A stretch of DNA of 64,000 nt, from the NCBI GenBank assembly GCA_045863335.1, contig BTVY01000003.1, positions 140,020 to 204,019 on the forward strand. Direction: 5' to 3'. Under the pieces are notes generated by a model. That model was not told the DNA's origin. It searched no databases and was given only the letters and a program-made list of their open reading frames with translations. Below are positions 3,405 through 20,402 of this stretch, one piece after another. Source of the stretch: Candidatus Hydrogenedentota bacterium. Its GTDB lineage: Bacteria; Hydrogenedentota; Hydrogenedentia; Hydrogenedentales; SLHB01. A program made the translations under genes and the position numbers. The stretch's first letter is position 1. Each line of letters starts with the position of its first letter.

Positions 3405-6400
3405 ATGTCTGATCCCCTTTCTGAACCTTCCGAGAAACACTTTAGTTTGCCTGTCCGGCGGCCCGTCACGATGGCGATGCTGTTTCTCACCATCGTCGTG
3501 TTCGGGTGGAAGTCCTACCAGGAACTTCCCATCAATCTGATGCCGGACATTTCCTATCCCACGCTTACGGTGCGCACCGAATACGAAGGCGCCGCCCCGG
3601 AAGACGTGGAGAAACTCGTCACGCGCCCGCTTGAAGAACAACTGAGCATCGTGAGCGGGCTCGTCGAACTCACCAGCACCTCCTCAGCGGGACTTTCCGA
3701 AATCGTGATGGAGTTCACGTGGGGCACGGACATGAATCTGGCCCAGCAGGATGTTCGCGACCGGCTCGACCTCTTCGATCCCCCCCGTGAGGTGACGGAA
3801 AAACCCGTAATCCTCCGCTACGACCCAACCTTAGACCCGGTAATGCGCGTTGCCGTCACTGGCGAGGACCTGTCCCATATTGCGGATCCCGCGGAACGGG
3901 AAGCCCGCAGCCGCGAACAGCTCACGGCCATTCGCGAGGCCGCCGAACGCTACGTGAAGAGCGACCTTGAAGCCGAAATCGGAATCGCCCAGGTGCTCGT
4001 GAAAGGCGGCCGGGAAATCGAAGTCGAGGTCATGGTCGACGCCGCCATCGTGAAGAATATCGGCCTCTCAGTCGAAGGCGTCGTCCAGGCCCTCGCGCAA
4101 CAGAATATTAATCTCTCGGGCGGTATTCTGCGGGAAGGCAAGACTGAATACCTCGTTCGTACCAAGAACGAGTGGCAGGACGTGAACGAAATCCCGGACT
4201 CCGTAATTGGCAGCACCAGCACCGGCCAGCCCGTCCGGTTGTCCGATGTCGCGACCGTGCGTATTGGAGAAAAGGACCGCGAATCCATCGTCCGCATCAA
4301 CGGCAGTGAAGCCGTCGAACTGGACATCTTCAAATGGGGCGACGCCAATACGGTGCGCACCTGCAACACGGTGAAGGATCTCCTCGGCTTCGCGCGCGAG
4401 AAGAATAGCCTGGAACGTTTGCGCGACTACATGAACGAGGCATCCCAGCCGCCGCCCGACGCGGACCTGCCATCGGTCATCGTCATGCAGCAACTCGCGA
4501 AGGAAATGGAAAAGTCGCGTACCCTGCGCAACAAGCTTCCGGACTACGCCCAATTCCACATCGTGAGCGACCAGTCGCGGTTCATTTCGTCGGCAATTAA
4601 AGAGGTCCAGTCGGCGGCGGTGAACGGCGGGTTCCTCGCGATTATCGTGCTCTACTTCTTCCTGCGGAAGTTGAAGCCTACGATCATTATGGGGGTCGCG
4701 ATTCCCATCTCGATCGTCGCTACCTTCATCCCGATGTTCATGCAGGATCTCACACTCAACATCATGTCTCTTGGCGGACTCGCCATGGGTGTTGGCATGT
4801 TGGTGGACAACTCCATCGTCGTTATGGAGAGCATCTCGCGATGCATGGAAGAAGGGGACGATACCTCGGCCTCGGCCAATCGCGGCCGGCAGGAGGTCTT
4901 TGGCGCGCTCATCGCCTCGACACTGACGTCAATTGCCGTTTTCATGCCCCTCGCCTTTGTGCAAGGCGTGGCGGGCCAACTCTTTCGCGACCACGCGCTC
5001 ACAGTAACGTACTCGCTGCTTGCCTCGTTGCTCGTGGCGCTGTATCTCGTGCCTATGATCGCGTCCCGCACGAAGCTCGCCCTCATCGCTTCAGGCGACG
5101 TGGTATGGATCCTGAAAGCTTATCACCAGTCACGCCAGGAAGACGGGAAAGGCCGGCTCGCGTCAGCCCTGGCGATCCCCCTCAACGCGGCGCTGGCTTC
5201 CGCACAATGGCTGATCGATCAGGCAACCGTGAACTACGGCCCGGCCCTTGCCCGGTTGCGCTCCGCCCTATCCGGCGGCGAAGGACCAGCGTTGCTCGGA
5301 CCCCTGCGTAGAGTCTGGAATCTCGTCATTGGCGCGGTCCTGATCGTCCTCGTCACCTTGTTGTTCAGTATTCAATGCGCGCTGCAAGTATTCCTGCAGT
5401 TTCTTATCACGCTGCTGTTTTTTGTCAGCATCTTGTTCGGCGCGCTCTTCGGGCTCGTGGCTGGACTATTGCACGTCATCCTCTGGATTCCCTTGTATCT
5501 CTTCGACCTCCTGTTTGAAACCTTTCGGAGTAGCTACGCCGTGTGGCTCCGGTACGCCCTGCGGTGGAGCCCGGCAATTCTCCTTCTGGTCGCGTTACTC
5601 GCCGTCCACAGCGCGACCCTGGTGCCCACACTCGGCAGGGAGTTGATCCCGGCCATGAATCAAGGGGAATTCGGCGTTCGCCTCGAAGAGCCGCCCGGAA
5701 CCCGGCTGGAAGAAACCGAACGCCGCTCTCTGGATATCGAACGCCTGGCGCTCGCCATGCCCGAAATAGGCAATGTTGCCGTCGAAATTGGCCAGGAGTC
5801 GGAGAAAGCGAACTCCGAACGCGGCGAGAACGTCGCAGAGTTTTCAATTTCCCTCAAGAATCCGAAGGAAGACGTCATCCATCAAGACGCAATCATGAAC
5901 CGGTTGCGCGACGCCATCGCCGGCGTTAGCAGCGGCGAGGTTACGTTCTCGCTGCCGAGTCTCTTCAGTTTCAAAACGGCAATTGAACTGCAGATCCGCG
6001 GTGACCAGTACGACGAGTTGGAACGAATCGGAAAGCGCGTCGTGGACGCCATCGACTCCGTGCCCGGTGTGAAAGACCCCGAACTGAACATGAAGGAAGG
6101 GTCTCCGGAGATCATCATCGAACTGGATCGCGATCTGCTGGCCGCCAAAGGCATCGCGCCGGAAACGGTGGCGCAGCGCCTGCGCACTGAGGTCCAGGGC
6201 GATCTCCCCACCGAACTCAACCGGCAAGGCGAAAAAGTCGACATCCGCGTTCGCACCGATCGAAAGATGCTTAGCAGCGTCGACGACTTGCGGCGCCTTT
6301 CCGTCACGGACGGGTATCCGCCCATTCCTTTGGATTCGGTCGCTCGCATCAGCGTCCAGGAAGGTCCTAACGAAATCCGTCGAATTGACCAACGGCAAGT

Positions 6401-7040
6401 GGCGCTTGTAACCGCAAACGTTACCGGCCGCGACCTTGGTGCAGTCATGGACGATGTGCTCGTGGCAGTCTCGGATGTTGACGTGCCGCGCGGATACGAG
6501 ATTAGCCCGAGCGGCCAGGATCGGGAATTGCGCACGGCCTATTCAAGCCTGCAGTTCGCGCTCATCCTCGCCATTTTCCTCGTATACGTGGTGATGGCCT
6601 GTCAGTTTGAATCGATCTTACACCCCGCGCTCGTCATGACAACCGTGCCGCTTGCGACCATCGGCGTGATCTACACCCTGGCCGCCATGGAAGTCAGCAT
6701 CAGTATTCTCGTGTACATCGGCGTTATCGTGCTCGCCGGTATCGTCGTGAATAACGCCATCGTACTGGTCGATTACATCAATCAACTCATCGATCGCGGC
6801 ATGACCAAGACGGATGCAGTCGTGGAAGCGGGTCGCGTCCGGCTTCGTCCGATTTTGATGACGACGCTCACGACCATTCTCGGCCTTTGGCCCATGGCCG
6901 TCGCCACGGGGGAAGGCGACGAAATTCGCCGTCCCATGGCGCTTACGATCATGGCGGGTCTGGCTTCGTCTACGCTGCTCACCCTCGTCGTGATCCCGAT
7001 GGTCTACCACCTCTTCGGCGGGCGGGACAAGAAAGCATGA
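3405..7040 (+). CDS. RND efflux permease subunit 1 (AcrB/MdtB-like)
   Basis: RRPVT, GMLVDNSIVV, GIVVNNAIVLVD, RLRPILMT. Confidence 0.95.
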   Translation: MSDPLSEPSEKHFSLPVRRPVTMAMLFLTIVVFGWKSYQELPINLMPDISYPTLTVRTEYEGAAPEDVEKLVTRPLEEQLSIVSGLVELTSTSSAGLSEIVMEFTWGTDMNLAQQDVRDRLDLFDPPREVTEKPVILRYDPTLDPVMRVAVTGEDLSHIADPAEREARSREQLTAIREAAERYVKSDLEAEIGIAQVLVKGGREIEVEVMVDAAIVKNIGLSVEGVVQALAQQNINLSGGILREGKTEYLVRTKNEWQDVNEIPDSVIGSTSTGQPVRLSDVATVRIGEKDRESIVRINGSEAVELDIFKWGDANTVRTCNTVKDLLGFAREKNSLERLRDYMNEASQPPPDADLPSVIVMQQLAKEMEKSRTLRNKLPDYAQFHIVSDQSRFISSAIKEVQSAAVNGGFLAIIVLYFFLRKLKPTIIMGVAIPISIVATFIPMFMQDLTLNIMSLGGLAMGVGMLVDNSIVVMESISRCMEEGDDTSASANRGRQEVFGALIASTLTSIAVFMPLAFVQGVAGQLFRDHALTVTYSLLASLLVALYLVPMIASRTKLALIASGDVVWILKAYHQSRQEDGKGRLASALAIPLNAALASAQWLIDQATVNYGPALARLRSALSGGEGPALLGPLRRVWNLVIGAVLIVLVTLLFSIQCALQVFLQFLITLLFFVSILFGALFGLVAGLLHVILWIPLYLFDLLFETFRSSYAVWLRYALRWSPAILLLVALLAVHSATLVPTLGRELIPAMNQGEFGVRLEEPPGTRLEETERRSLDIERLALAMPEIGNVAVEIGQESEKANSERGENVAEFSISLKNPKEDVIHQDAIMNRLRDAIAGVSSGEVTFSLPSLFSFKTAIELQIRGDQYDELERIGKRVVDAIDSVPGVKDPELNMKEGSPEIIIELDRDLLAAKGIAPETVAQRLRTEVQGDLPTELNRQGEKVDIRVRTDRKMLSSVDDLRRLSVTDGYPPIPLDSVARISVQEGPNEIRRIDQRQVALVTANVTGRDLGAVMDDVLVAVSDVDVPRGYEISPSGQDRELRTAYSSLQFALILAIFLVYVVMACQFESILHPALVMTTVPLATIGVIYTLAAMEVSISILVYIGVIVLAGIVVNNAIVLVDYINQLIDRGMTKTDAVVEAGRVRLRPILMTTLTTILGLWPMAVATGEGDEIRRPMALTIMAGLASSTLLTLVVIPMVYHLFGGRDKKA

Positions 7041-10000
7041 AACGGTCCCTCCCCGGTATAGCGCTCAGCCGTCCCATCACGGTGATCATGCTCGTTATCA
7101 CGGTAATCGGATTGGGCATTATTGCGCGCTACCGGATTCCCCTGGAATTCCTGCCGCCTATGGATCTGCCCTTCATCATCTGCCAGATCCCCTATGTGGG
7201 CGCTACACCGGAACAGGTCGAGAAGGAAGTCGCCATTCCCGCCGAAGGCGAGTTCCGCACCGTGTCCAGTCTGAAACGAATCCAGACCACATCGGACATG
7301 AACGGCTGTCTCGTGCGCATGTTCTTTGACATGGGCACGGACATGTCGCTCGCCACAGCGGAAGTGCGGGACCGTATCGAACGGCTCAAGCTAGTCCTCC
7401 CGGACGAGATCGAGCGCGTGGCCCTCAGGAAGTTTAGCGCCAACTCCATGCCGGTCATGGCGCTCGCCCTGTACAGCCCTGAAGACGACGAAGAACTCAC
7501 CTACCGTGTGCGCACCATTCTTCAGCCCCGCATGATGCGCCTCGAAGGCGTCGCGGATGTCAGCGTATTCGGAAAGCCCGAACGGGAAGTCTTGATCGAG
7601 TTTAATCAATCCGAACTCCGCAGCCGCGGGCTGAGCCTCTTCCAGGTCGTGTCGTCGTTGCGCCAGACCAGCATCAATATGACCGTGGGCGACATGGTCG
7701 ACGGCAATATGCGCTACTACGTGCGCGCCATCGATGAGTTCACCACGCCGGAAGACCTCGGCCAGTTGGTAGTCGGTCCCAACTCCCTCCGCCTGCGCGA
7801 CGTGGCCAATGTGGGTTACCGTACGCGCGAAGTGGATTCCGGCTATGCCATCGACGGCCAATCCGGCACCTTCCTGCTGGTGCGCAAGGAATCCGAGGCG
7901 AACGCCATCAACACCTGCGCCGAAGTGCGCGCGGAACTGGCGCGTATGACCGAAGATCCGCTCTTTAAAGACGTTCAGTACTTCATGTTCTTCGATCAGA
8001 GCGAGGTCATTCTCTCCGCGCTCGAGGGCCTCGTCGCGGCGGGCCAATTCGGCGGTGCGCTCGCGGTCGTCGTATTATTCCTGTTCCTCGGCCGCATCCG
8101 GCCAACCCTTATCGTCGCGCTCGCCATTCCCGCATCGGTCGTCGTCGCACTTGTGTTCATGTTTTTCATCGGCATGAGCCTGAACCTCGTCACTATGATC
8201 TCGCTGATCATTGGACTCGGCATGCTCGTGGACAACTCCATCGTCGTGATCGAGAACATCACGCGCCACGTGCAGCTCGGGTACAAGCCGAAGGAAGCCG
8301 CACTGCGCGGCGCCTCGGAAATGGCCATGGCGATCACCGCGTCGACCCTCACCACCTGCGTGGTCTTTATTCCCATCCTTTACATGGGCGTGGGGGAGAT
8401 GTCGACCTACATGCGCGCCTTCGCCGTGCCCATCACCGTATCGTTGGGCGCAAGTTTGGTGATCGCCCTCACCGTGATCCCGCTCGCCGCAAGCCGCATG
8501 AAACCCCGGCATGAGTTGGCCCTCGCGCGCGTATTCAATCGCCCCGCCATGGCCCAAACGCCGGGCAGCGCCGCGGTGACAACCGAAAAGCGCCGTTCGC
8601 GGTTCCCGAAACTCATGCATCCCATTCATTATCTCATCAGCACCTACATCAAATGCCTCGATTGGGTGCTGCGCTGGCGCTTGGCAACCGCCATCGTGGT
8701 TCTCTTTGTGCTGGCGCTCACGTACCTCATACCCTTCAGTCATCTCAAACGCCAGGGCATGCCTACGGTAGACACACGACGGATTTCCATTGAAGTCGTC
8801 TTGGACCAGGGATTCACGTTGGATCAGTCGCGCGCCACTTTCCTCGAAATCGAGGACATTCTCGATGAGCAGCGGGAAGAACTAGGCATCAAGAACGTGT
8901 TCAGCCGCTACGACCCCTCCGGCGGCGAAGTCGATATCTACCTCTACACCGACGAGGATCTCGAGGAATCCGGCGAAGAACTCGCCTACTCCACGGAAGA
9001 CGCCATGGACATCCTCTGGCAGCGTCTCCCGTCCCGCGTGCCCGGCGGCGAACTGCGCTTCTCCATCGCCGAAGCCAGCGAGACGTCGTCCCGATCGTTC
9101 GCGCTGCAGATCCGCGGCGACGACGCACGCACGCTGGCTACCTACGCCGACCGCCTCAAGGTGCTCATGCAGGAGAATATCCCCGAGATTACCGAGGTCA
9201 TCACCGATTCGGAACGGGCCAAACAAGAAGTGCAGCTCGACGTCAACGAGACGCTCGCCGAGTTCTACGGACTCACGCCCCTCGCCATCGCGCAGACTGT
9301 CGATTTCGCCCTCCGCGGCATACAGATCACCAAGCTAAAGCAGGGCGGACGCGAGATCCCCGTCTGGGCCCAGTTCCAGGAAGAAGACCGCAAGTCGCGC
9401 GGCAACCTCGAGAACGTGACCGTCTACGGCGCGAAAGGCGAGCCCGTCCCCATCAACCGCGTCGTGGAGTTCTCCAAGGGACGCAGCCCCCAGGCCATCT
9501 CGCGCGTGAATGGAAAGAACGTGGTGACCGTCACCGCCAAGATCCGCGGCGAGAACCTCGGCGGCGTCCTGGATGAACTCAAGACGATCCTGAACGACTT
9601 CGACATGCCCACCGGATACAGCGTCGAATTCGGCGACGAACTCATGGCCCTCGACGAAAACATGGCCAGCTTCAGCACGGCGCTCTTTCTGGCCGTAATT
9701 CTCATCTACATCGTCATGGGCTCAGTATTTGAGTCCTATCTGCTGCCCTGGTCCATCCTGACCACCTTGCCCCTCGCCGGTGTGGGCGTCGCGTGGTCCC
9801 TCTACATTTTCGACTCCGCCGTCGACACCGTCACCATGATCGGCGTTATCCTCCTCGCCGGCATCGTCGTCAACAACGGCATCGTGCTCATCGACTACAT
9901 CAACCAGATGCGCAAGACCGGCATGGACCGGCACGACGCGATCATCGGATCCGGCCGCGACCGCTTCCGCCCCGTCATGATGACCGCCCTCACCACCATC

Positions 10001-10207
10001 CTCGGCTGCGTGCCCCTCGCCCTCGGCAGCGCCATCGGCGGCGAAGTCTCCTTCGGCGGCCTCGGCCAGGCCCTTATCGGCGGCCTCACCACCGGCACCG
10101 TCCTTACCCTCTTCATCGTCCCCCTCACCTACACCGTCTTCGACGATATCCGCATCTGGTTCCTCGAATTCTTCTCCAACGTCGCCGGCATCTTCCACCG
10201 CGCGTAA
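7037..10207 (+). CDS. RND efflux permease subunit 2 (AcrB/MdtC-like)
   Basis: ATGA overlap with the upstream stop (MKRSLPG). GMLVDNSIVV, GIVVNNGIVLID, RFRPVMMT. Confidence 0.95.
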   Translation: MKRSLPGIALSRPITVIMLVITVIGLGIIARYRIPLEFLPPMDLPFIICQIPYVGATPEQVEKEVAIPAEGEFRTVSSLKRIQTTSDMNGCLVRMFFDMGTDMSLATAEVRDRIERLKLVLPDEIERVALRKFSANSMPVMALALYSPEDDEELTYRVRTILQPRMMRLEGVADVSVFGKPEREVLIEFNQSELRSRGLSLFQVVSSLRQTSINMTVGDMVDGNMRYYVRAIDEFTTPEDLGQLVVGPNSLRLRDVANVGYRTREVDSGYAIDGQSGTFLLVRKESEANAINTCAEVRAELARMTEDPLFKDVQYFMFFDQSEVILSALEGLVAAGQFGGALAVVVLFLFLGRIRPTLIVALAIPASVVVALVFMFFIGMSLNLVTMISLIIGLGMLVDNSIVVIENITRHVQLGYKPKEAALRGASEMAMAITASTLTTCVVFIPILYMGVGEMSTYMRAFAVPITVSLGASLVIALTVIPLAASRMKPRHELALARVFNRPAMAQTPGSAAVTTEKRRSRFPKLMHPIHYLISTYIKCLDWVLRWRLATAIVVLFVLALTYLIPFSHLKRQGMPTVDTRRISIEVVLDQGFTLDQSRATFLEIEDILDEQREELGIKNVFSRYDPSGGEVDIYLYTDEDLEESGEELAYSTEDAMDILWQRLPSRVPGGELRFSIAEASETSSRSFALQIRGDDARTLATYADRLKVLMQENIPEITEVITDSERAKQEVQLDVNETLAEFYGLTPLAIAQTVDFALRGIQITKLKQGGREIPVWAQFQEEDRKSRGNLENVTVYGAKGEPVPINRVVEFSKGRSPQAISRVNGKNVVTVTAKIRGENLGGVLDELKTILNDFDMPTGYSVEFGDELMALDENMASFSTALFLAVILIYIVMGSVFESYLLPWSILTTLPLAGVGVAWSLYIFDSAVDTVTMIGVILLAGIVVNNGIVLIDYINQMRKTGMDRHDAIIGSGRDRFRPVMMTALTTILGCVPLALGSAIGGEVSFGGLGQALIGGLTTGTVLTLFIVPLTYTVFDDIRIWFLEFFSNVAGIFHRA

Positions 10208-10209
10208 TC
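10168..10209 (+). repeat. 42-bp direct repeat, copy 1 (last codons and stop of RND subunit 2)
   Basis: ATTCTTCTCCAACGTCGCCGGCATCTTCCACCGCGCGTAATC, identical to 12451-12492. Confidence 0.97.
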
Positions 10210-10469
10210 AGCACGAACACCGCCCGCACCGCCGTGTTCCCATTCACCACCACATTCACCGGGTTCGCCGTCCCCGACGCCCCGCCTTCCCAATGGTCGA
10301 ACACCGAATTGGTCCCCGCCGCCGCCGTCAACGTAACCGTCGTGCCCTCTGCCACCTCGTAGAACGCGCCCGTCACGCAGCTATCGCTAATCTGATATCC
10401 CGTCACGGGTTGAATCGGCGGCGAGAGCGACACAGTCCCCGTCTCTGCCCCCGGCATGCACGGCGCCAT
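10210..10469 (-). pseudogene. Truncated fragment encoding an InlB B-repeat-like (bacterial repeat) domain
   Basis: GTVSLSPP...EGTTVTLTAAAGTNSVFDHWEGGASGTANPVNVVVNGNTAVRAVF. The frame runs straight into the antisense strand of the RND gene at the repeat junction. Confidence 0.7.
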
Positions 10470-10539
10470 GTCCTTGGATACATCCAGTTCCCGCAGTGGG
10501 TGGAATGCCGCATTGACGGACGTATCGACACGTCTACAT

Positions 10540-11514
10540 CTATTTGTCCTCCGGCTTCTCGGGCGCAATGAAGGTCAGCGAATCCAGCGTAACCTCGGTA
10601 ATCTTCCCCTCGTGCCATATCTTGAATGTATCGCCTTCGATGGGGAAGGTAATCACCTCGCCCGGCAGTACGCATTGTGTGTCCGTTTCAATGTTCAAGA
10701 GTGTGTCGCGGAAGATGCCAGAAGTCTGCGATGGCCTGATCAGAATCGAGTCGTTCAACCATCCTCGTGGCCAGAAGATTGCATCTTCGCCAATACTCGT
10801 CACGCCTTCCGTCACGTCCGTGTCGGATTCCGTCAAGTACAGCACAAATGGACTGCCCTCGTACGACGGCCGAAAGTAATGTCTTCCATTAGGGGAAAAG
10901 AAGATCGCTCGATGAGGAGTTTCTCTGGTTTCCTTGTCGCGCGGGTCATATTGATAGACGTTGACCCCGGTCTTGAATCCGAGATCTCGGACATACAGGT
11001 TTCCATCGTGCTCCGCCCACGCAAGATCGTAGCCTAGGCAGGTCAGTTTGCGCGCTACTGAATCGTCAATCCGATAGACCCAGATACTCGCGGGCCGGAA
11101 TCCCGGGTAGTCTTCATCGTTTATTCCCAGAATGTAAGCAATTGATTTTCCATCAGGTGCCCACGAAAAATGATATACGTCCGGAATTCTTAGCGTGATT
11201 TCCCCCTTCATATCGACAAGTATGAGCGATCTCTGCCCGCCGATGGCTTCTGTGCATGCGACATAGTCGCACCGAGGAGAAAGCGCTACCTCGATAAGCG
11301 TTTCGGCGGCGGTGTACAGCACCTCCTTGTGTCCATCTTCTGGATCGATAATGCACAGTTCCTTCCGGCTAAGGTCCTTATCGTGCAGGCTATAATAGAC
11401 GCCTCCTGCAACGATGAAGTTACACCTACTTTGTGCCGAGATTCCCGATATCTGCCCAAGCGCCGATGCAGCGATAAGCATTGGTGTCAGGATACGAATC
11501 GTCCTCGCGATCAT
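10540..11514 (-). CDS. Secreted TolB/WD40-like beta-propeller protein
   Basis: AGGAG RBS before MIARTIRIL, signal peptide, ALSP/FSWAPDGKSIAY/FFSPNGRH blades; more AT-rich than neighbours. Confidence 0.75.
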   Translation of the reverse strand: MIARTIRILTPMLIAASALGQISGISAQSRCNFIVAGGVYYSLHDKDLSRKELCIIDPEDGHKEVLYTAAETLIEVALSPRCDYVACTEAIGGQRSLILVDMKGEITLRIPDVYHFSWAPDGKSIAYILGINDEDYPGFRPASIWVYRIDDSVARKLTCLGYDLAWAEHDGNLYVRDLGFKTGVNVYQYDPRDKETRETPHRAIFFSPNGRHYFRPSYEGSPFVLYLTESDTDVTEGVTSIGEDAIFWPRGWLNDSILIRPSQTSGIFRDTLLNIETDTQCVLPGEVITFPIEGDTFKIWHEGKITEVTLDSLTFIAPEKPEDK

Positions 11515-11549
11515 CGTTCGACTCCTATCAGTTGTCCAGCCCATCCGGG

Positions 11550-11582
11550 TGCAATAAATGGGGACAGAAACCATTTATTGCA
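11550..11582. repeat. RAYT-flanking palindrome, left copy
   Basis: TGCAATAAATGG-GGACAGAAA-CCATTTATTGCA: 12-bp perfect arms, 9-nt loop. Confidence 0.9.
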
Positions 11583-11638
11583 ACCCTTTCTTCTTTGATC
11601 CCTCGCGGGTAAATCCGTGCTCCCGTGAGCCTTTTGTA

Positions 11639-11667
11639 ATACTAGCACTTCGGCCCGGAATTAGCAA
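11639..11667 (-). promoter_or_regulatory. Putative sigma70 promoter firing from behind the RAYT stop into the cargo
   Basis: Minus strand TTGCTA-17 nt-TAGTAT with a TG extended -10. Confidence 0.55.
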
Positions 11668-11690
11668 TGGAGTCGCGTGCTGGCTCCCAT

Positions 11691-12392
11691 TCACCGGCGT
11701 TTGCGGCGGACGCGGTCTTTGCTGCCGTGGGGGCGGCCGCGGGGGATGGCGCGTACGCGACGGCCCAGGTAGGTCTCGACCTTGCTGAGGAAGGAGCCGC
11801 TGCCGAGAGGGCGCCCCGTGCGCGTGTGCAGGCGAAGGAGATCCACCTCGGGGCCGGAATCTGCAATAGCGGCAAGCGTGGCCTTCCATCTGGCGGCGGG
11901 GATTTCCTCAAACCACGCGCCGAGGTCCAGCAACCGGGCCGGGTCGCCCCCTTCGCCGCAGTGGGCAGCCGCGCTGGACCACGCGTAGTCCCATGCCGAA
12001 GCAGTCATTGCCGCGCGCACGGGATTAAGTTCCACGTACGCCCTCGCATTGTGCGCGTAGGCCTCATCCATGGGGCACGAGTAAAACCGGCTTTGCCAAA
12101 GGTGGCCCAGGCGTCCGTGGAGCCGGTGGATGTACTGGGCGTACATGAGGTGCGTACGCCCCATGGTGTTCGCCAACGATTCTTCCCGCTCCGGCGTGAC
12201 CACGAGGTGGACGTGATTCGTCATGAGGCAATACGCCGACACTGCCAGGCCATGGCGTTGCGCGCTCTCCCGCAGAAAGGACAAGTAGACGCGCCGGTCG
12301 TCATCGGTGAAAAACACGTCTTGCCGGTAGTTGCCCCGCTGCGTGACATGATGAGCCACTCCGGGGAGAACGATTCGCGCCTGTCGTGCCAT
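11691..12392 (-). CDS. REP-associated tyrosine transposase (RAYT, Y1 HUH, IS200-like fold)
   Basis: MARQARIVLPG..HHVTQRG, YCLMTNHVHL (HUH), LWQSRFYS, YVELNPVRA (catalytic Tyr), WSS, basic C-terminal tail. Confidence 0.92.
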   Translation of the reverse strand: MARQARIVLPGVAHHVTQRGNYRQDVFFTDDDRRVYLSFLRESAQRHGLAVSAYCLMTNHVHLVVTPEREESLANTMGRTHLMYAQYIHRLHGRLGHLWQSRFYSCPMDEAYAHNARAYVELNPVRAAMTASAWDYAWSSAAAHCGEGGDPARLLDLGAWFEEIPAARWKATLAAIADSGPEVDLLRLHTRTGRPLGSGSFLSKVETYLGRRVRAIPRGRPHGSKDRVRRKRR

Positions 12393-12398
12393 GATGAG

Positions 12399-12428
12399 AC
12401 GATAGCACGGGGCGGGGAGGGGATGCAA
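12399..12428 (-). promoter_or_regulatory. Putative RAYT promoter, probably giving a leaderless mRNA; -35 lies inside the palindrome arm
   Basis: Minus strand TTGCAT-18 nt-TATCGT with TG extension. ATG begins 7 nt after the -10 box, with no RBS. Confidence 0.5.
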
Positions 12429-12453
12429 TAAATGGTTACTGTCCCCATTTATT
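12424..12453. repeat. RAYT-flanking palindrome, right copy (inverted relative to left copy, outer arm clipped)
   Basis: TGCAATAAATGGTTACTGTCCCCATTTATT: 29/30 match to the reverse complement of the left copy; last ATT shared with direct-repeat copy 2. Confidence 0.9.
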
Positions 12454-12492
12454 CTTCTCCAACGTCGCCGGCATCTTCCACCGCGCGTAATC
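12451..12492 (+). repeat. 42-bp direct repeat, copy 2
   Basis: Identical to 10168-10209. Confidence 0.97.
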
Positions 12493-12529
12493 CACCTTCA
12501 GCGCGAAAGCTGAAGTGCTCCCCCCTCAA

Positions 12530-12704
12530 GTAGGTCGGGAATGATTCCCGACCAGTGCATGCAGATAACCCGCGTCACAACCCAACGCGCTATCCCTGCG
12601 CCAGGCCGCACGAATGACCGTCCCCCTTCCTCAGAACGCGCGCCGCCCCTCGCCGGAATCGAAACCGCCGCCCTGATTCAGGTCGGGAATCATTCCCGAC
12701 CTAC
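12530..12704. repeat. GTAG-family REP doublet (REPIN)
   Basis: GTAGGTCGGGAATGATTCCCGACC (12530-12553) and its exact reverse complement at 12681-12704. Confidence 0.88.
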
Positions 12705-12838
12705 GGGGGCACGCTACCATCTCCCCGTGAACGTCGCTCGGTATGTCGCTGCCTAGGCTAGTCGTCTGTGACCGGAGCGGCTCAGACAGGGGTGACTTGA
12801 GTAGATTGCTGTCAATGACGCTTGGTTTCAAGAGTCTT

Positions 12839-14974
12839 TTATCGGATTGGTAGCTCATCGGCCCCTTGGGAGCCGTCCACAAGCGAAACCGCAACATGGC
12901 TGTCCCCGTCGAGGGCCGCTGTGGCAAACGCTTCGATATCCTGCAAGGAATTGGCGGGCGAGACGGCTTGCCATTCCTCGATGTTCCACACACCATCATT
13001 GTCTGCATCGCGTTCCCATAAGAAGTACACTTGCGACGACCGGTCGTAATTGTTGCGGTCAATGGTAACTCCAGACAACGCGTTCTCAACCAAATCCCGC
13101 ACGCTCTCCACCGTATCAAAATCCCCGAGCGTCATGTATCCGGCAACGATGCGGACAATGCGCGGGTCGTAGCCACTCAGGTCAATGGATGCTCGTGCAA
13201 GGTTGGCGCGCCAGGCCTCCCAAACCGGTTCGTGAGCGATGGCACTCCGTGCGGTCCAATCGAGATGGCGGGTCTTGAGCACCGTTTCGAGGAGGTATAG
13301 TTCCGCGGCATCTAGAATACCGTTGCCCACGTACACGCGCTCCCCGGAATCGAACACCACTTCGTTCCGGTCGAACGTGGCCGACGTCGCACTCTCGCCC
13401 ACGGCCTGAAGGAAATAGTCGAGATCGCCCACCATATCCAGGTCGGTCAATCCCGGCCTCTCGATAAAATGAGCATAGACTTCCAACGCGCCTTCGATGG
13501 TGGCCGAAGTCTTTTCTGAAAGCCAATTCACATGACCGGGAAAGTTTCCAATCCAATAGTCAAAAGCCCAGTTCGGCGCCGGGGTGGCCGTGAACTCCAC
13601 CTTCGTGCCTTCGCGCAAGAGACCTGATTCTGGCGTGATGGTTCCGTTGCCGACAACGCCGGTCCTGACCTGATGGTACCGCGGTCCCGTGTCCGAGATG
13701 TCGGGGCGAGTCGCGGTGCTTGCGTGGATGCGCTGTATCGCTCTCGAAAGCTCCTCATTGATGTATGGAAACAGTTCCGAGCCTGAACCGTTACCGAATT
13801 CGGTCTGAATTACGCTCTGGATACTTCTCAGTAGTCCCTCCTGCACTCCATAGAGGTCTTGTCGCCACTGGCCTTTTTCAGTGGTTTCATAAGCGTGCAA
13901 TGCTGCGTCAAAACATTGCCGGGCCGCTTCTATGTCCGCCGCATCCTCCCTGGCCGCTGCACGCTGGCACACGGAATGCAGCGTGACATCGATTTGGAGT
14001 CCGCGGCGCATCAGATTGACAAGTTCATCTGAAGCAGCGCTCCCGCCGACCTGCGTTCCATCGATGGCGAGCCGTCGAATAGCGGTCTTGGTTACGAGGT
14101 CGCCGTTCGGAAACGCGTCATCCCTGTGTTTCATCGCGATACGCGCCAGCCGCTCCGGCGGCGCGTCCATCAAGGAAAGGAATGTTTCTTCCGCGACCAG
14201 TCTGCGATTCCCTGTAAGCCCTGTCAACGGATCGACTTTAGTTCCGGACAGCGCGTTCTCGTCACGATACAAACGCTGTTCGGGCACGTTTTCTGTAAGG
14301 AATTGTAGAATCTCGTCGTAACGCTCCTGGCAGACAAATCCAATCCAGGAGACTTTGCGGCGTACCAACCAGCGCACCTCTTGATCGGGATGTGCCACGT
14401 ATTCCTTCAGAATCTCCAGAATTGCGCTTGTACCGTCGCGGGGAGTAACCTCCGGCGCATAAAACGTCGTGGCGTACGCGACTTTTAAGATCGCACCAAT
14501 CTCTTCCGGATCCGATGTGGCGCTCAGTTGCGCCTCCAATGCCTTCAGCAAGACACCTCGGTGTCGTGCGCGATCGTCGGGCGACTCAAAGCGCATGCGT
14601 TTGTTGCACTCCGCCAGCCACAACAGAATCTGCAGCTCACCAGACGGTAGATCCTCTGTCCAATCATCTATGAATCGCTCCTCGAATGCGTTGGCGAGTA
14701 GTTTGTCGTCAAGTGGTTGAGTTCGTTCCTCAGCCCGCAGCAGCAAGGTGTCGAAATACCGATCGAGGTTGGTCTCGGACTCGGTGGCGATAATCAAGAG
14801 TTCCGCGCCCTCGGTTGGGTCTCCATTCATGACACGTTCGATGTTAACCGGCCGGCTGCACGCGGCCATGGCGAGTGAGAGAACAACAAGCGCCAATGGG
14901 GCGCTCCTCCGAGTTGATCGCAGGTTGATCCGCTGCGGGTTCCTGCGCGTGCGGTAGTCCTCAATGCCCTTCAT
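12839..14974 (-). CDS. Lipoprotein with helical N-terminal region, InlB B-repeat-like domain and an acidic DxDxDG-containing C-terminal domain
   Basis: AGGAGGT RBS before ATG 14974, lipobox LAMAAC, GNGTITP..EGTKVEFTATPAPNWAFDYW, DADNDGVWNIEEW. Confidence 0.75.
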   Translation of the reverse strand: MKGIEDYRTRRNPQRINLRSTRRSAPLALVVLSLAMAACSRPVNIERVMNGDPTEGAELLIIATESETNLDRYFDTLLLRAEERTQPLDDKLLANAFEERFIDDWTEDLPSGELQILLWLAECNKRMRFESPDDRARHRGVLLKALEAQLSATSDPEEIGAILKVAYATTFYAPEVTPRDGTSAILEILKEYVAHPDQEVRWLVRRKVSWIGFVCQERYDEILQFLTENVPEQRLYRDENALSGTKVDPLTGLTGNRRLVAEETFLSLMDAPPERLARIAMKHRDDAFPNGDLVTKTAIRRLAIDGTQVGGSAASDELVNLMRRGLQIDVTLHSVCQRAAAREDAADIEAARQCFDAALHAYETTEKGQWRQDLYGVQEGLLRSIQSVIQTEFGNGSGSELFPYINEELSRAIQRIHASTATRPDISDTGPRYHQVRTGVVGNGTITPESGLLREGTKVEFTATPAPNWAFDYWIGNFPGHVNWLSEKTSATIEGALEVYAHFIERPGLTDLDMVGDLDYFLQAVGESATSATFDRNEVVFDSGERVYVGNGILDAAELYLLETVLKTRHLDWTARSAIAHEPVWEAWRANLARASIDLSGYDPRIVRIVAGYMTLGDFDTVESVRDLVENALSGVTIDRNNYDRSSQVYFLWERDADNDGVWNIEEWQAVSPANSLQDIEAFATAALDGDSHVAVSLVDGSQGADELPIR

Positions 14975-15121
14975 CCGATTGACCTCCTTTTGAACGCGTC
15001 TGCAATAGAGGTGCGAAAGATTGTAGAGGCTTGTACCCCGGAATCCGCGCTTGACCGCCCGTGGCTGATTTGGTTGAATGGCCGGATGCCTTGACGCGGA
15101 ATGGTTGGGAAGGAGCGGACT

Positions 15122-17254
15122 GTGGAGCGCGCGATTAAAAATCCCCTGTGGAAACCTTCGAGCATCTTTTTGATTGCTTTGTCCTTGTCGATGGGGTGGG
15201 GGATGCGCGGGAACTTTGGACACGAGTCCGGCGCGTGGATCCCGGGGGCCTTGGCGGCCATGGCCATCGCCATCCTGTCGCAACGGGAGGACTGGCGGCA
15301 GCGCGTTCATTTCTTCGCTCTCTTTGGCGGGTTGGGCCTCGGGTTCGGTGGCTCCATTTCGTACATGTACGCCATCTCCTTCACCATGTCCGGACACCTG
15401 CCGTCCATCTGGTATGGCTACCTCCTCACCTTCTTCGAGGGCGCGCTCTGGTGCGGACTCGGCGGCGCGGGCATGGCCCTGGCCGCGACGGCCAAACGCG
15501 AGCGCTTGACCGGCCTCATCGTCCCCATGTGTTACGTCATCGTCGCGCTGGTGGTTCACAAACTCATTGAAGAACCCGTCGCGCGCCTCCTGAATCCGCC
15601 CGCGGCGGAGGCCATGGACGCGGTCTGGCACCGGCAGAAGAGTCCCCTTTACTGGTTCGACGCGGACTGGTTCTCGGCGCTGATGGCCTTCCTCGGCGTG
15701 TGCGTGTACGACCTCGTGAGCCGCGCGCGGGACAAGGCGTTCCCGCTGTCCGCCGCGATCCTGGTCATGTTCCTCGTGGGCGGCGCGGCGCTCGGCTTCC
15801 TCGTGCAGACGGGCGTCCGGGCTGTGGGCGTGGAAGACGCGATCACCAACGCGCTGAACGTGCCCCTTGGCGATCCCGCTGCCATCAATCCCGAAACGGG
15901 CATCGCGTATGGCGACGAGATCGATGAGCGCACGGAAGCGCCCTACGGGCTGACCAACTTCCTGACGAACTGGCCGCAACCCTTCAGCGACTACCCGCAA
16001 CACGTGGGCTGGGTGCTCGGGCTTCTGATCGGTTGGACCCTCTATTTCCTCATTTTCGGCAAGTGGTATAACGACAGCGGGCTCTTCCTCTACATGTCCC
16101 TCGGTTGGCTAGTGAGTTTCATGCTCTTTCCCGTGCTCGGCACGGCCCTGCTGTACCATATCGGCATGGCCCTGCGCGAAGGCGGATCGGACGTGTACGT
16201 CCCGCTCTTCGGCGGGTTCCGGTTGATGCCGCCGCGCAGCGACGATTGGGCCGGCATCTTCGGCGTGTTCGTCGCCGCGATCCTGTACTGCATGCGCAAG
16301 GGTTGGAAACCGGTTGCCCTCGGCGCGAGCCTGAGCGCCCTCATCGGCGGGATCATGTTCGCCACCATGCAACTTATCCGCAGCCTGCTCGTCGCGCCCG
16401 GCAACCAATTCCTGAACGACGGCACGACACCGCCGGAATGGGCCCACTACCAGAGCGCGAACTGGCACAGCTTCCTCGAACAATCCCAGGGCTTCGGCCA
16501 CGGCATGGCCTTCGCCGTCACCGCGGCCGTGTTGTGGTCCGTCGTGAAGACCCACAAGGACGAGCCGCGCGTGCGACCCTGGACCGAGATCTTCGCGGTC
16601 GCCTTCGTGCTGCTCTTCATGGTCTACGCGAACCTCTACAAAAACGTGGCGCAATGGACCGGCGGAGGCAAACCGCTCGTGCCCGAATCCATGAAGCCGC
16701 CGCTGATCGCGGAACTGTTCACGGGGCCGGAAAACCCCGTCACCTTCAGCGCGCTCACGTGGTTCAACCTCGTCTGGATCGCGGCGGGCGCGGCGCTCAT
16801 CGGACTCATGATCGCCCACCTCCGCGGACGCCGCGTGGAGATCGTGCCGTCCAGTTGGGTGGGGAAGGGGCAGCTCCTCTACGTGCTCGTCCTGTGGGGG
16901 ATGGTGATCGGCAACTTCGAACGCGCCCTGCCCGGCTTCGCCGAAGGACGCCTCATCACCGAGTGGGTCATCTTCATCAACGCGGCCCTCGCCACGTTCC
17001 TCCTGGGTTACCTGCCGCGTCCAACGGCGGAGACCCTCACCATCGAAGAGCCGGAACCTTTCCGCCCGCGCCTCGGCAAGGTCTGGGCCATCGGCCTGCC
17101 GGTTGCCATCGTCCTCATGACGCTCTACACCGGCATCATCCGCGGCGTCTACGGCGACGCCTCCGTCGGCCACCCCGACCTCTCCCACAAACGCTTCGGC
17201 CCTGAAGCCGTCTGGGCCGTGAAGCCGATCCTGAAAGAGGGCAAGCACCGGTAG
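15122..17254 (+). CDS. Uncharacterised polytopic membrane protein
   Basis: AAGGAG RBS before GTG 15122, many hydrophobic segments, strong host codon bias. Confidence 0.85.
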   Translation: MERAIKNPLWKPSSIFLIALSLSMGWGMRGNFGHESGAWIPGALAAMAIAILSQREDWRQRVHFFALFGGLGLGFGGSISYMYAISFTMSGHLPSIWYGYLLTFFEGALWCGLGGAGMALAATAKRERLTGLIVPMCYVIVALVVHKLIEEPVARLLNPPAAEAMDAVWHRQKSPLYWFDADWFSALMAFLGVCVYDLVSRARDKAFPLSAAILVMFLVGGAALGFLVQTGVRAVGVEDAITNALNVPLGDPAAINPETGIAYGDEIDERTEAPYGLTNFLTNWPQPFSDYPQHVGWVLGLLIGWTLYFLIFGKWYNDSGLFLYMSLGWLVSFMLFPVLGTALLYHIGMALREGGSDVYVPLFGGFRLMPPRSDDWAGIFGVFVAAILYCMRKGWKPVALGASLSALIGGIMFATMQLIRSLLVAPGNQFLNDGTTPPEWAHYQSANWHSFLEQSQGFGHGMAFAVTAAVLWSVVKTHKDEPRVRPWTEIFAVAFVLLFMVYANLYKNVAQWTGGGKPLVPESMKPPLIAELFTGPENPVTFSALTWFNLVWIAAGAALIGLMIAHLRGRRVEIVPSSWVGKGQLLYVLVLWGMVIGNFERALPGFAEGRLITEWVIFINAALATFLLGYLPRPTAETLTIEEPEPFRPRLGKVWAIGLPVAIVLMTLYTGIIRGVYGDASVGHPDLSHKRFGPEAVWAVKPILKEGKHR

Positions 17255-20382: not shown

Positions 20383-20402
20383 TCGCAACGACGGTATCGA
20401 CT

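What the first reader, a model, noticed from the sequence alone, without database searches (positions are those of the whole stretch)
10168..12492. RAYT-bounded gene-capture element inserted with an exact 42-bp duplication of a host gene end
Seen: the last 42 bp of the RND gene, including its stop, recur exactly 2283 bp downstream. Between the copies lie [truncated gene][beta-propeller gene][hairpin A][RAYT][hairpin B]. The hairpins are inverted copies. Hairpin B loses its outer arm exactly where repeat copy 2 starts, sharing ATT. The other junction has no hairpin and cuts through a gene. Known: IS200/IS605 Y1 transposases make no target duplication, and RAYTs are generally viewed as immobile genes that spread REPINs. 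Inference: one defined hairpin end plus one ragged end resembles one-ended or rolling-circle HUH transposition (IS91/ISCR-like). The RAYT would move itself with passenger DNA past its second hairpin and restore the target gene's 3' end.
Basis: partly seen in the sequence, partly recalled or inferred. Interest (0 to 1): 0.85.

Follow-up and report, generated by a model that had tools for sequence, protein, structure and literature searches.

The report
RAYT-like unit beside duplicated gene end
A small hairpin-bounded transposase unit and two passenger genes lie between two exact copies of the last 42 bases of an efflux-pump gene; the extra copy keeps the pump gene whole and points to cutting and joining at the hairpin tip, but whether the passengers arrived in the same event is unsettled.

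Summary
An exact 42-bp direct repeat (10168-10209 and 12451-12492) contains the RND gene's stop codon and flanks 2241 bp. That stretch holds a cut Flg_new_2 gene, a beta-propeller-like gene and a Y1 HUH gene between two inverted 27-nt hairpins.

Two corrections:
- Hairpin B is not truncated. In 39 of 39 hairpin ends of this family compared across the genus, similarity stops right after CCATTTATT, so 12453 is the normal terminus of a 901-bp unit (11553-12453).
- The unit fits the published TIRtron/TIRYT kind (RAYT-like, GGGGWSAS motif in the repeats). Here it behaves like a low-copy insertion sequence, with several copies, relics and 392-bp miniature derivatives.

Hairpin ends recur as rearrangement junctions in the genus: tandem duplications of 32, 100 and 183 bp starting within 1 nt of a hairpin boundary, a 563-bp indel flush with one end, and replaced neighbouring DNA.

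I found no empty allele, and no other hairpin in this genome abuts a flank duplication. Three metagenomes from other studies hold the RND-to-passenger junction but not the DNA right of copy 2. One-step one-ended capture (0.33) and a two-step history (0.30) therefore stay close.

Verdict: new variant of a known kind, moderate interest.

The parts
6887..10207 (+). RND efflux transporter gene (AcrB/AcrD/AcrF family). It is intact, and its last 13 codons plus stop lie in repeat copy 1.
   Evidence: Pfam ACR_tran E 2.6e-200. The tail FFSNVAGIFHRA* is kept in G005 and nearly kept in G001 and G002.
10168..10209 (+). Repeat copy 1: the last 38 nt of the RND gene's coding sequence, its stop codon (TAA, 10205-10207) and 2 nt after it.
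10210..10210 (.). Single base A at the left junction. It matches neither the repeat nor the homologues of the cut gene.
   Evidence: Sequence compared with G005:C479 and G000:C77.
10211..10568 (-). 5' part of a small Flg_new_2 (InlB B-repeat-like) gene, cut at 10211. The start codon is uncertain.
   Evidence: Pfam PF18998 E 6.4e-8. It is 92% identical to G005:C479 and 91% to G000:C77 from 10211 on, and those genes continue with a second domain.
10540..11514 (-). Beta-propeller-like gene with a signal peptide. The likely start is ATG 11514 (the ORF finder runs to 11574, inside hairpin A). GC is about 51%, against 60-65% around it.
   Evidence: PD40 below cut-off; single copy in G000; 95% identical to G005:C91
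11528..11548 (-). Relic of the last 6 codons and stop (PDGLDN*) of the gene that lies upstream of the beta-propeller gene in G005. Similarity to G005 ends at 11548.
11553..11579 (.). Hairpin A (AATAAATGG-N9-CCATTTATT), left terminus of the unit. It contains GGGGACAG at 11560-11567. Here the stem extends to 11547-11585.
   Evidence: (ssDNA -13.3 kcal/mol, z -4.8)
11691..12392 (-). Y1 HUH gene, TnpA-REP/RAYT-like of the TIRYT kind, 233 aa. The HUH motif and catalytic Tyr are conserved.
   Evidence: Pfam Y1_Tnp 5.5e-15. NCBIfam REP_Tyr_transpos 65.9 bits (cut-off 80) and IS200 24.6 bits (cut-off 55). Family alignment. PDB profile hit to 4ER8 at E 2e-4.
12427..12453 (.). Hairpin B, right terminus of the unit. 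Its last 3 nt (ATT) are also the first 3 nt of repeat copy 2.
11553..12453 (-). The 901-bp hairpin-to-hairpin unit (TIRtron-like). This is the part that recurs elsewhere.
   Evidence: 88% identical copy at G000:C57 4651-5566, 90% at G005:C90, 85% at G004:C20.
12451..12492 (+). Repeat copy 2.
12496..12515 (+). Small stem-loop (CTTCAGC GCGAAA GCTGAAG) right after copy 2. It may be the native 3' structure of the RND transcript. No T run follows it.
   Evidence: -6.0 kcal/mol, z -2.4; weak

Best explanation
The right-hand junction was made at the normal terminus of a 901-bp IS-like unit: a TIRYT/RAYT-like Y1 HUH gene between two inverted 27-nt hairpins.

Proposed mechanism (inferred, not shown):
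1. The Y1 enzyme nicked single-stranded DNA at the hairpin-B boundary, just 5' of AATAAATGG on the gene's sense strand. It also nicked a look-alike AAT site (GAAG|AATTC on that strand) 39 nt before the end of the RND repeat.
2. It joined the two ends. That gives the hairpin B / CTTCTCC joint and the shared ATT.
3. The transferred strand did not stop at hairpin A. It ran on for 1.34 kb through the neighbouring beta-propeller gene into the small Flg_new_2 gene, leaving a ragged 3' end.
4. That end primed on the target 2 nt past the RND stop codon. Fill-in back to the nick re-made the last 39 nt.

The result is two copies of the gene end (39 nt plus the 3-nt overlap) and an intact RND gene. Selection would keep only outcomes that restore the conserved tail.

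Shown: the anatomy, the normal terminus, the mobility of the unit, and hairpin ends as recurrent junctions in the genus. Inferred: the enzyme's cleavage site, the strand polarity, and that both junctions arose in one event.
For: 1. The repeat is exact and there are only two copies.
2. Copy 2 starts at the family's normal terminus. In 39 of 39 hairpin ends the outer flank diverges right after CCATTTATT, while inner flanks fall into conserved classes.
3. The unit is mobile:
 - G000 has a second full copy (C57, 95.7% aa), a 98.4%-identical half copy (C96) and four 3' relics with a hairpin (C32, C2, C77, C21).
 - G004 has 392-bp hairpin-bounded derivatives at 4 places.
 - Hairpin counts are 11, 13 and 10 in G000, G004 and G005. 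The reversed-pattern control gives 0.
4. Hairpin boundaries are junctions elsewhere:
 - Tandem duplications start within 1 nt of a hairpin boundary: 100 bp with 99 nt identical (G005:C244), 183 bp at 99% (G004:C20), 32 bp with 30 nt identical (G005:C90).
 - 6 of 39 ends carry a repeat of 7 nt or more of the terminal 11 nt just outside. The mirror test on the inner side gives 0 of 39.
 - A 563-bp indel lies flush with a hairpin end (G000:C32 against G003:C32).
 - Similarity between genomes stops within a few bases of a hairpin end at G000:C2/G005:C139, at the window/G005:C91, and on both sides of the orthologous unit G000:C57/G005:C90.
5. The protein keeps HUH and Tyr. Its family profile hits TnpA-REP 4ER8 at E 2e-4 and ISDra2 TnpA at 0.013.
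6. The beta-propeller gene is single-copy. In G005 it sits in another locus, syntenic with G000:C80, so it has moved in one lineage.
7. The RND tail is conserved in the genus, so only events that restore it should persist.
8. No integrase lies in the 10.4-kb stretch between RND and tpiA. No Ku was found in a 99.4%-complete genome.
Against: - It is one event. None of the other 10 hairpins of G000 has a flank duplicated anywhere in the genome.
- The hairpin-flush duplications in relatives are tandem and made mostly of element sequence. They are not target-side repeats split by cargo.
- The insert is a mosaic. Its three blocks lie on three contigs in G005, and nothing carries it as one piece.
- No empty allele (42-mer followed by CACCTTCAGC after an RND gene) was seen in 5 same-genus genomes, in 4 laid runs, or in two exact-pattern scans of each public collection.
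- Runs X2, X24 and X5 (three other studies) cover RND and the insert but have essentially no cover of 12721-14500. The X24 contig crosses copy 1 without the break that a second context would cause. This suggests strains with the left junction but without copy 2, which favours a two-step history.
- The left junction shows no microhomology and no enzyme-like site.
- The RND stop is a breakpoint in every genus member examined, without any hairpin nearby.
- No biochemistry exists for this enzyme.
- The published view is that there is no evidence class 2 TnpA-REP genes are mobile (PMC6006769, passages read).
Confidence: 0.33

Rival explanations
1. Two-step history. The left junction (RND stop | A | cut Flg_new_2 gene, with the beta-propeller gene and the unit already beside it) is older and has nothing to do with the enzyme. 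Later, only the DNA to the right of hairpin B was replaced, as happened at other hairpin ends in the genus. The incoming DNA was the same locus of a strain without the insert. It was joined at the hairpin terminus to an ATT site inside that strain's RND tail and anchored by ordinary homology further right. The 42-bp repeat is then a by-product, and nothing was 'captured'.
For: - Runs X2, X24 and X5 hold RND and the insert but essentially nothing of 12721-14500. The X24 contig crosses copy 1 unbranched.
- DNA next to hairpin ends is replaced at the orthologous locus G000:C57/G005:C90, on both sides, and at other loci.
- The base after the RND stop is a breakpoint in all genus members examined: a VapBC-like pair in G005, G000:C1-like DNA in G004, tpiA in G001 and G002.
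- The insert is a mosaic of blocks that lie apart in G005.
Against: - It also needs an unseen insert-free allele.
- It needs the illegitimate end of the incoming DNA to fall in the last 42 bp of RND. That is possible, but it is one outcome of many.
- Cover in X2, X24 and X5 is low (about 3-7x) and comes from contigs, so absence is weak evidence. Loss of copy 2 in those strains by the same kind of replacement explains the data equally well.
Confidence: 0.3
2. No enzyme involved. The hairpins stall or dislodge the replication machinery, and the nascent strand switches template (fork stalling and template switching). It copied 2.2 kb from another place and returned 39-42 bp behind where it left, with ATT as microhomology.
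For: - There is a 3-nt overlap at the hairpin joint and a 1-nt filler at the other.
- Tandem duplications next to palindromes are a known product of template switching (established knowledge, recalled).
- The hairpins fold as ssDNA.
Against: - The stems are short and AT-rich. Hairpin B gives only -6.5 to -7.4 kcal/mol, z about -2.
- The breakpoints fall at the same base that bounds transposed copies in 39 of 39 ends. A site-specific nick predicts this; a stall does not.
- Terminal repeats occur only on the outer side: 6 of 39 against 0 of 39.
Confidence: 0.12
3. Remnant of an island integrated by a site-specific recombinase into the 3' end of the RND gene. The two 42-mers would be attL and attR.
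For: Direct repeats that contain the 3' end of the target gene and keep it intact are the classical signature of such islands (established knowledge, recalled).
Against: - There is no integrase or recombinase domain in the insert or in the ORFs tested between RND and tpiA.
- The insert is only 2.2 kb.
- One repeat abuts, to the base, the terminus of an unrelated mobile unit.
- The other junction cuts a gene.
Confidence: 0.03
4. Assembly artefact: a 42-bp repeat wrongly threaded, with the insert really lying elsewhere or being a free circle.
For: No Logan contig bridges hairpin B, copy 2 and the downstream DNA.
Against: - An X24 contig from another study spans RND to insert (9953-10505).
- X1 depth is even across RND (18), insert (20.3) and downstream (19.1).
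- X1 contig ends fall where a true two-context 42-mer breaks a k=31 graph.
- 42 bp is shorter than usual reads.
Confidence: 0.03

Closest known systems
TIRtron / TIRYT (Di Nocera et al. 2013, PMC3733652; subclass 2.1 of Quentin et al. 2018, PMC6006769; Group 1 RAYTs of Bertels et al. 2017, PMC5581495). Passages read.
   Same: - The protein is a TnpA-REP-like Y1 HUH protein, longer than E. coli TnpA-REP (233 aa against the 165-aa chain of 4ER8).
- The gene is flanked by terminal inverted repeats rather than GTAG REPs.
- The repeats contain GGGGACAG, which fits the published GGGGWSAS motif.
- The repeat family is small (11 in this genome).
   Different: - Here the whole unit recurs at several loci and has relics and 392-bp miniature derivatives.
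- Its ends are junctions of duplications, indels and replaced DNA.
- The papers describe the structures and state that there is no evidence of mobility for class 2 genes. I did not see their supplements, which list the examples.
REP/REPIN-RAYT systems (E. coli TnpA-REP, Pseudomonas RAYTs)
   Same: - The enzyme family matches (best solved relative 4ER8).
- The gene is flanked by inverted palindromic hairpins.
   Different: - The gene is not single-copy.
- The hairpin is not abundant (11 in the genome, most beside the gene or its relics).
- There is no GTAG tag.
- The NCBIfam score is below the curated cut-off (65.9 against 80).
IS200/IS605 insertion sequences (IS608, ISDra2)
   Same: - A Y1 HUH transposase acting on hairpins.
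- Several copies and short non-autonomous derivatives.
- No short target duplication at ordinary copies of the unit.
   Different: - The ends are a perfect inverted repeat at the very tips, not two different subterminal hairpins on one strand.
- The IS200 model score is far below its cut-off (24.6 against 55).
- On each strand, only one of the two hairpins is in a given orientation.
IS91/ISCR and Helitron one-ended, rolling-circle gene capture (PMC13181058 and PMC4778049: search listing and abstract starts only)
   Same: The outcome resembles these: one defined end, one ragged end, and neighbouring genes carried past a missed stop signal.
   Different: - The enzyme class differs (Y2/Rep with or without helicase there; a small Y1 here).
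- Those elements make no target duplication and end at preferred short sites.
- Here there is a 39-42-bp duplication and no site at the ragged end.
REP sequences at join-points of tandem chromosomal duplications in Salmonella (Shyamala et al. 1990; recalled, not read)
   Same: Palindromic repeats mark the joints of duplications.
   Different: As I recall, those are large duplications by recombination between two REPs. Here the joints link a hairpin terminus to unrelated sequence.

Membership tests
TIRtron / TIRYT | TnpA-REP-like Y1 protein with HUH motif and one catalytic Tyr | tested here: met
   Pfam Y1_Tnp E 5.5e-15. N59, H62 and Y119 are invariant, and H60 is kept in at least 90% of 21 aligned family members. 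The family profile hits 4ER8 at E 2e-4.
TIRtron / TIRYT | Gene flanked by terminal inverted repeats instead of GTAG-tagged REPs | tested here: met
   Arms 11553-11586 and 12420-12453 are 34 nt long and 94% complementary. No GTAG sits at the hairpin foot.
TIRtron / TIRYT | GGGGWSAS motif in the repeats (PMC3733652, passage read) | tested here: met
   GGGGACAG lies at 11560-11567 (plus strand, hairpin A) and in hairpin B on the other strand.
TIRtron / TIRYT | C-terminal helix-turn-helix-like extension (subclass 2.1, PMC6006769, passage read) | tested here: inconclusive
   About 95 residues follow the Y1 domain (Pfam match ends at residue 133 of the 245-aa ORF). Pfam finds no domain there. The profile gives only weak hits of positions 171-224 to MBF1/EDF1 HTH proteins (E 0.2-0.9).
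REP-RAYT system | Single-copy gene per genome | tested here: not met
   There are two full genes (the window and C57, 95.7% aa), a 137-aa half copy at 99% aa (C96), and 3'-end remnants at C32 and C2 by protein search, plus C77 and C21 by DNA.
REP-RAYT system | Flanking palindrome is highly abundant in the genome (tens to hundreds) | tested here: not met
   G000 has 11 hairpins with at most 1 mismatch per arm. About 9 of them lie beside the gene or its relics.
REP-RAYT system | Score above NCBIfam REP_Tyr_transpos cut-off | tested here: not met
   65.9 bits against a cut-off of 80.
IS200/IS605 | Score above NCBIfam transpos_IS200 cut-off | tested here: not met
   24.6 bits against a cut-off of 55.
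IS200/IS605 | Different subterminal left and right hairpins on the same strand, no terminal inverted repeat | tested here: not met
   The ends are inverted copies of one 27-nt hairpin, reaching the last base of the unit.
IS200/IS605 | Insertion next to a fixed 4-5-nt target, without target duplication | tested here: inconclusive
   The 39 outer flanks show no common motif. No short direct repeats flank the two full units in G000. No filled/empty pair for a simple insertion was found.
IS91/ISCR-type rolling-circle element | Y2 HUH Rep-like transposase | tested here: not met
   Only the Y1_Tnp domain is found, in a 233-aa protein. The best solved relatives are Y1 enzymes.
IS91/ISCR-type rolling-circle element | One constant end and variable other ends among copies carrying neighbouring DNA | tested here: inconclusive
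   There is one such case (this window). Other copies end at both hairpins or are 3' relics. DNA next to the ends varies between genomes, but no second cargo-bearing copy was found.
Integrase-borne genomic island | Tyrosine or serine recombinase gene next to one repeat | tested here: not met
   The ORFs tested between 10210 and 20588 have no such domain.

The most novel reading that the evidence does not exclude
A TIRYT/RAYT-like Y1 enzyme, of a class regarded as domesticated and immobile, works here as a nick-and-rejoin engine at its own hairpin tips. On this reading it:
- moves its 901-bp unit;
- makes hairpin-flush tandem duplications by nick-primed strand-displacement synthesis that ends in rejoining;
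- when transfer runs past the far hairpin, carries neighbouring genes into a new site;
- rebuilds the interrupted gene end by fill-in.
This would be a one-ended gene-capture route for Y1 HUH enzymes that leaves a long, variable target duplication.
Probability: 0.3. Interest if true: 0.8.

Novelty: new variant of a known kind. Interest (0 to 1): 0.55.

Why it matters
It has long been unclear how RAYT- and TIRYT-type Y1 enzymes act in cells. Only REP cleavage and rejoining in vitro is known, and the genes are regarded as domesticated. This genus offers a small, tractable family:
- about 10 hairpins per genome;
- an intact gene;
- miniature derivatives;
- recent exact duplications (32, 100 and 183 bp, and the 42 bp here) whose joints sit at the hairpin boundary.

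This gives a concrete cleavage site and polarity to test. It also suggests these enzymes reshape neighbouring genes, here a cluster of variable surface-type proteins next to an efflux operon. If the one-step reading is right, it adds a gene-capture route to Y1 HUH enzymes. If the two-step reading is right, the interest lies in hairpin tips as hot spots for replacing adjacent DNA.

Tried and rejected
- Empty allele. I looked in 5 same-genus genomes. After the RND stop, G005 has a VapBC-like pair, G004 has DNA like G000:C1, and G001 and G002 have tpiA after about 160 bp. G003 gave no RND-end contig in the listed matches. None shows the 42-mer followed by CACCTTCAGC.
- Exact-pattern scans. The 27-nt pattern gave 0 hits in metagenome contigs and 0 in genome contigs. 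The 29-nt pattern gave 0 hits in metagenome contigs and 1 in genome contigs. That hit is L042, the G005 contig already held. Records of the window's own genome may be left out of these scans.
- Laid contigs. Four runs show no joint that skips 10210-12450. Contigs built at k=31 break at a 42-bp repeat, so this says little. The joints 12555/12556 to 12684 and 11727 to 12427 have short sides (22-28 nt), which the tool warns about. I use the second only as a hint of a deletion derivative.
- Loose ends. At 12454 in X2 and X24, contigs run into other DNA. That DNA matches nothing in G000 and is not the continuation of the gene relic next to hairpin A (my own translation). It may belong to other copies or other organisms.
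- Donor locus. No second copy of the beta-propeller gene or of the insert exists in G000. G000:C80, which is syntenic with the G005 locus holding that gene, shows no clear scar.
- G000:C77. It carries a RAYT relic and a Flg_new_2 paralogue 2.4 kb apart. The DNA between them is unrelated, so I rejected it as the source.
- Two enzyme nicks on opposite strands. An ATT on the minus strand lies 3-4 nt inside the left junction, so the geometry does not fit (sequence).
- End joining by Ku. No Ku was found in G000, which is 99.4% complete.
- Solved structures. phmmer with the single protein gave nothing. The family profile was needed.
- G000:C2 locus against G005. The relic lies in a 1.7-kb stretch that differs from G005, but the break is not flush with the hairpin.
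- Supplements. Supplementary files of the papers, which hold the TIRYT lists and alignments, were not seen.

Full report
**1. What is there**

The window is contig C3:140020-204019 of a 6.75-Mb draft genome of 105 contigs. Two RND transporter genes end at 10207 (Pfam ACR_tran, E 2.6e-200 for the second).

The repeat finder reports one exact 42-nt direct repeat, 10168-10209 and 12451-12492, 2283 bp apart. BLAST against the whole assembly finds only these two copies. The repeat contains the stop codon (TAA 10205-10207) and 2 further bases.

Between the copies lie, left to right:
- one unassigned base, A at 10210;
- the 5' part of a small Flg_new_2 gene on the minus strand, 10568 to 10211 (PF18998, E 6.4e-8). 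Its homologues in G005:C479 and G000:C77 read on ('AVFV|PRFTVTV...') where the window meets the RND end;
- a beta-propeller-like gene on the minus strand, 10540-11514. The label is weak (PD40 below cut-off), and GC is about 51% against 60-65% around it;
- the last six codons and stop of another gene, PDGLDN*, 11528-11548;
- hairpin A, 11553-11579;
- a Y1 HUH gene on the minus strand, 11691-12392;
- hairpin B, 12427-12453.

The hairpins are inverted copies, and both fold as single strands. A small stem-loop follows copy 2 at 12496-12515.

**2. The unit and its family**

The protein matches Pfam Y1_Tnp (5.5e-15). It is below both NCBIfam cut-offs: REP-associated tyrosine transposase 65.9 against 80, and IS200 24.6 against 55.

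It belongs to a very large family. 7729 of the 8000 scored candidates have E at or below 1e-5. The 120 best listed hits are mostly 210-250 aa long, and sources name them 'transposase' or 'REP-associated tyrosine transposase'. In an alignment of 21 members, N59, H62 and Y119 are invariant and H60 is kept in at least 90%. A profile of that alignment hits E. coli TnpA-REP (4ER8) at E 2e-4 and ISDra2 TnpA at 0.013.

The terminal repeats contain GGGGACAG. This fits the GGGGWSAS motif that Di Nocera et al. describe for the repeats around 'TIRYT' genes, their 'TIRtrons' (PMC3733652, passages read). Quentin et al. equate these with their subclass 2.1 and with Group 1 of Bertels et al. They state that there is no evidence class 2 genes are mobile (PMC6006769 and PMC5581495, passages read). 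I therefore file the unit as TIRtron-like. I do not file it as a classical REP-RAYT (it is neither single-copy nor abundant) or as IS200/IS605 (it has inverted ends and a low model score).

**3. The unit behaves as a low-copy insertion sequence**

In G000 the hairpin pattern occurs 11 times.

Copies and remnants in G000:
- one more full copy (C57 4651-5566; 88% nt, 95.7% aa);
- a 98.4%-identical half gene (C96), cut by another multi-copy insertion sequence;
- 3' remnants with a hairpin at C32, C2, C77, C21 and C57:6210.

In the genus the pattern occurs 11, 13, 10, 2, 1 and 1 times in G000, G004, G005, G003, G001 and G002. The reversed-pattern control gives 0 everywhere. G004 carries a 392-bp derivative (hairpin, about 340 bp of the gene's 3' part, hairpin) at four places.

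I oriented 40 unique hairpins the same way. One had too little flank. In the other 39, the inner flanks fall into a few conserved classes, and the outer flanks diverge right after CCATTTATT. Position 12453 is therefore the normal terminus, not a truncated arm. The remnants all keep the hairpin-A side. No remnant with only the hairpin-B side was seen among those listed.

**4. Hairpin ends are junctions elsewhere**

(a) Tandem duplications start within 1 nt of a hairpin boundary:
 - 100 bp, with 99 nt identical and one extra base, in G005:C244;
 - 183 bp at 99% in G004:C20;
 - 32 bp, with 30 nt identical, in G005:C90.

(b) 6 of 39 ends carry a repeat of 7 nt or more of the last 11 nt within 25 nt outside the end. 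The mirror test on the inner side gives 0 of 39.

(c) G000:C32 and G003:C32 differ by 563 bp that lie flush with the hairpin end.

(d) Similarity between genomes stops within a few bases of a hairpin end in three comparisons:
 - at G000:C2/G005:C139;
 - at the window's hairpin A against G005:C91;
 - on both sides of the orthologous unit G000:C57/G005:C90, where the unit (89%) and the distant flanks (90-92%) are kept but the adjacent 1-3.5 kb are unrelated.

At G000:C2:159652 the whole 1.7 kb around the relic differs from G005, but the break is not flush with the hairpin.

A nick just 5' of AATAAATGG explains the three tandem duplications. The free 3' end is extended with strand displacement, and the enzyme-held 5' end is then rejoined. 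This is inference.

**5. The neighbourhood**

In G001 and G002 the RND gene is followed after about 160 bp by tpiA, which lies at 20589 in the window. So 10210-20588 is a variable stretch. Its right part, from about 15045, is shared with G003, G004 and G005. In G005 a hairpin with a gene remnant sits about 180 bp left of that shared part.

After the RND stop, G005 has a VapBC-like pair and G004 has DNA like G000:C1. The RND end is thus a breakpoint in every member examined.

The insert is a mosaic relative to G005:
- 10211-10388 matches C479 (92%);
- 10471-11548 matches C91 (95%), inside a locus syntenic with G000:C80 (88%) that lacks the gene in G000;
- 11547-12455 matches C90 (90%).

No integrase domain was found in the ORFs tested between RND and tpiA. 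No Ku was found in the genome.

**6. Reads**

24 runs share words with 9900-12800. I laid the contigs of four runs from four studies.
- X1 (share 0.93; possibly the source sample) matches exactly. Its contigs break at 10197 and restart at 12463, as expected for a 42-mer with two contexts. Depth is even (18, 20.3, 19.1).
- X24 has a 553-nt contig spanning 9953-10505 with 6 differences. The left junction therefore exists in another study's sample and is not branched there.
- X2, X24 and X5 cover the beta-propeller gene and hairpin A. They have essentially no cover of 12721-14500.
- No contig skips the insert.
- Contigs cannot show absence, so these points are hints only.

**7. Explanations**

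Both leading readings place an enzyme-made joint at hairpin B's terminus, joined to an ATT/AAT site 39 nt before the end of the repeat.

Reading A (0.33), a one-ended transfer:
- The transfer starts at hairpin B and runs past hairpin A for 1.34 kb.
- Its ragged end primes 2 nt past the RND stop.
- Fill-in re-makes the gene end.

Reading B (0.30), two steps:
- The left junction is older.
- Only the DNA right of hairpin B was later replaced, by the same locus of an insert-free strain.

The evidence does not separate them:
- The run data and the mosaic nature of the insert lean to B.
- The closeness of the two junctions and the hairpin-flush duplications lean to A.

Other readings score lower:
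- Template switching without the enzyme gets 0.12. The breakpoints coincide with the transposition terminus, and the terminal repeats are one-sided.
- An integrase att relic gets 0.03.
- A misassembly gets 0.03.

**8. Verdict**

The kind (TIRtron/TIRYT) is in print. I did not find three things in the passages I read or in three literature searches:
- the unit's mobility;
- the hairpin-flush duplications;
- the 42-bp gene-end duplication.

Supplements were not seen. I rate it a new variant of a known kind, interest 0.55.

Noticed in passing
G000 contig ends (e.g. C96:4115-4142, C77:20336-20363, and the starts of C2, C10, C17, C20, C23, C46, C81, C93): A multi-copy insertion sequence breaks the assembly. 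A 25-nt end string occurs 13 times, 12 of them within 100 nt of a contig end. One copy cuts the 98.4%-identical RAYT-like half gene of C96, 24 nt after its stop.
   Followed up: partly
window 12530-12553 and 12681-12704: A second palindrome family (GTCGGGAATSATTCCCGAC) forms an inverted pair right after repeat copy 2. G000 has 21 copies with at most 1 mismatch. It also lies about 380 bp past the 10211-equivalent point of the intact Flg_new_2 paralogues in G000:C77 and G003:C790. A distant Y1 gene (30% aa) lies at G000:C26:85896-86213.
   Followed up: partly
window 10210-20588; G001:C230, G002:C105, G004:C14 and C24: RND and tpiA are neighbours in G001 and G002 but 10.4 kb apart here. In G004 the RND end and the tpiA-side block are joined to the two halves of a site that is continuous at about G000:C1:58.8 kb. 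This fits a large inversion with one breakpoint at the RND stop.
   Followed up: partly
window 10471-11548; G005:C91:2276-3353: The beta-propeller-like gene is a discrete low-GC block of about 1.08 kb. It is 95% identical between G000 and G005 (neighbouring genes are 88-91%) yet sits in different loci. In each it lies just downstream of a large Flg_new_2-type gene or its relic.
   Followed up: partly
window 12839-16003 (-) and 15101-17254 (+): Two long ORFs overlap by about 900 bp. The minus-strand one probably starts near 14971 (lipoprotein-like signal; 710 aa with a Flg_new_2 domain). The 717-aa plus-strand ORF has no Pfam match but is conserved in G003-G005.
   Followed up: no
G005:C12:about 2300-2600 (L011): A VapB/VapC-like pair follows the RND stop in G005. 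This is my reading of the translated sequence only, with no family search.
   Followed up: no
G004:C20:152318-152922, C27:217584-218005, C29:11047-11468, C20:1138-1559: A 392-bp miniature derivative of the unit occurs at four places in G004. One copy has a 183-bp tandem duplication ending 1 nt past its hairpin.
   Followed up: yes
window 3405-7040 and 6887-10207: The two RND ORFs overlap by 154 bp as listed. The second probably starts later than the TTG at 6887.
   Followed up: no
Labels disagree. Close homologues of the Y1 protein are named from Candidatus Hydrogenedentes MAGs, while the record title of the G005 contig names another phylum. I did not resolve the taxonomy.
   Followed up: no
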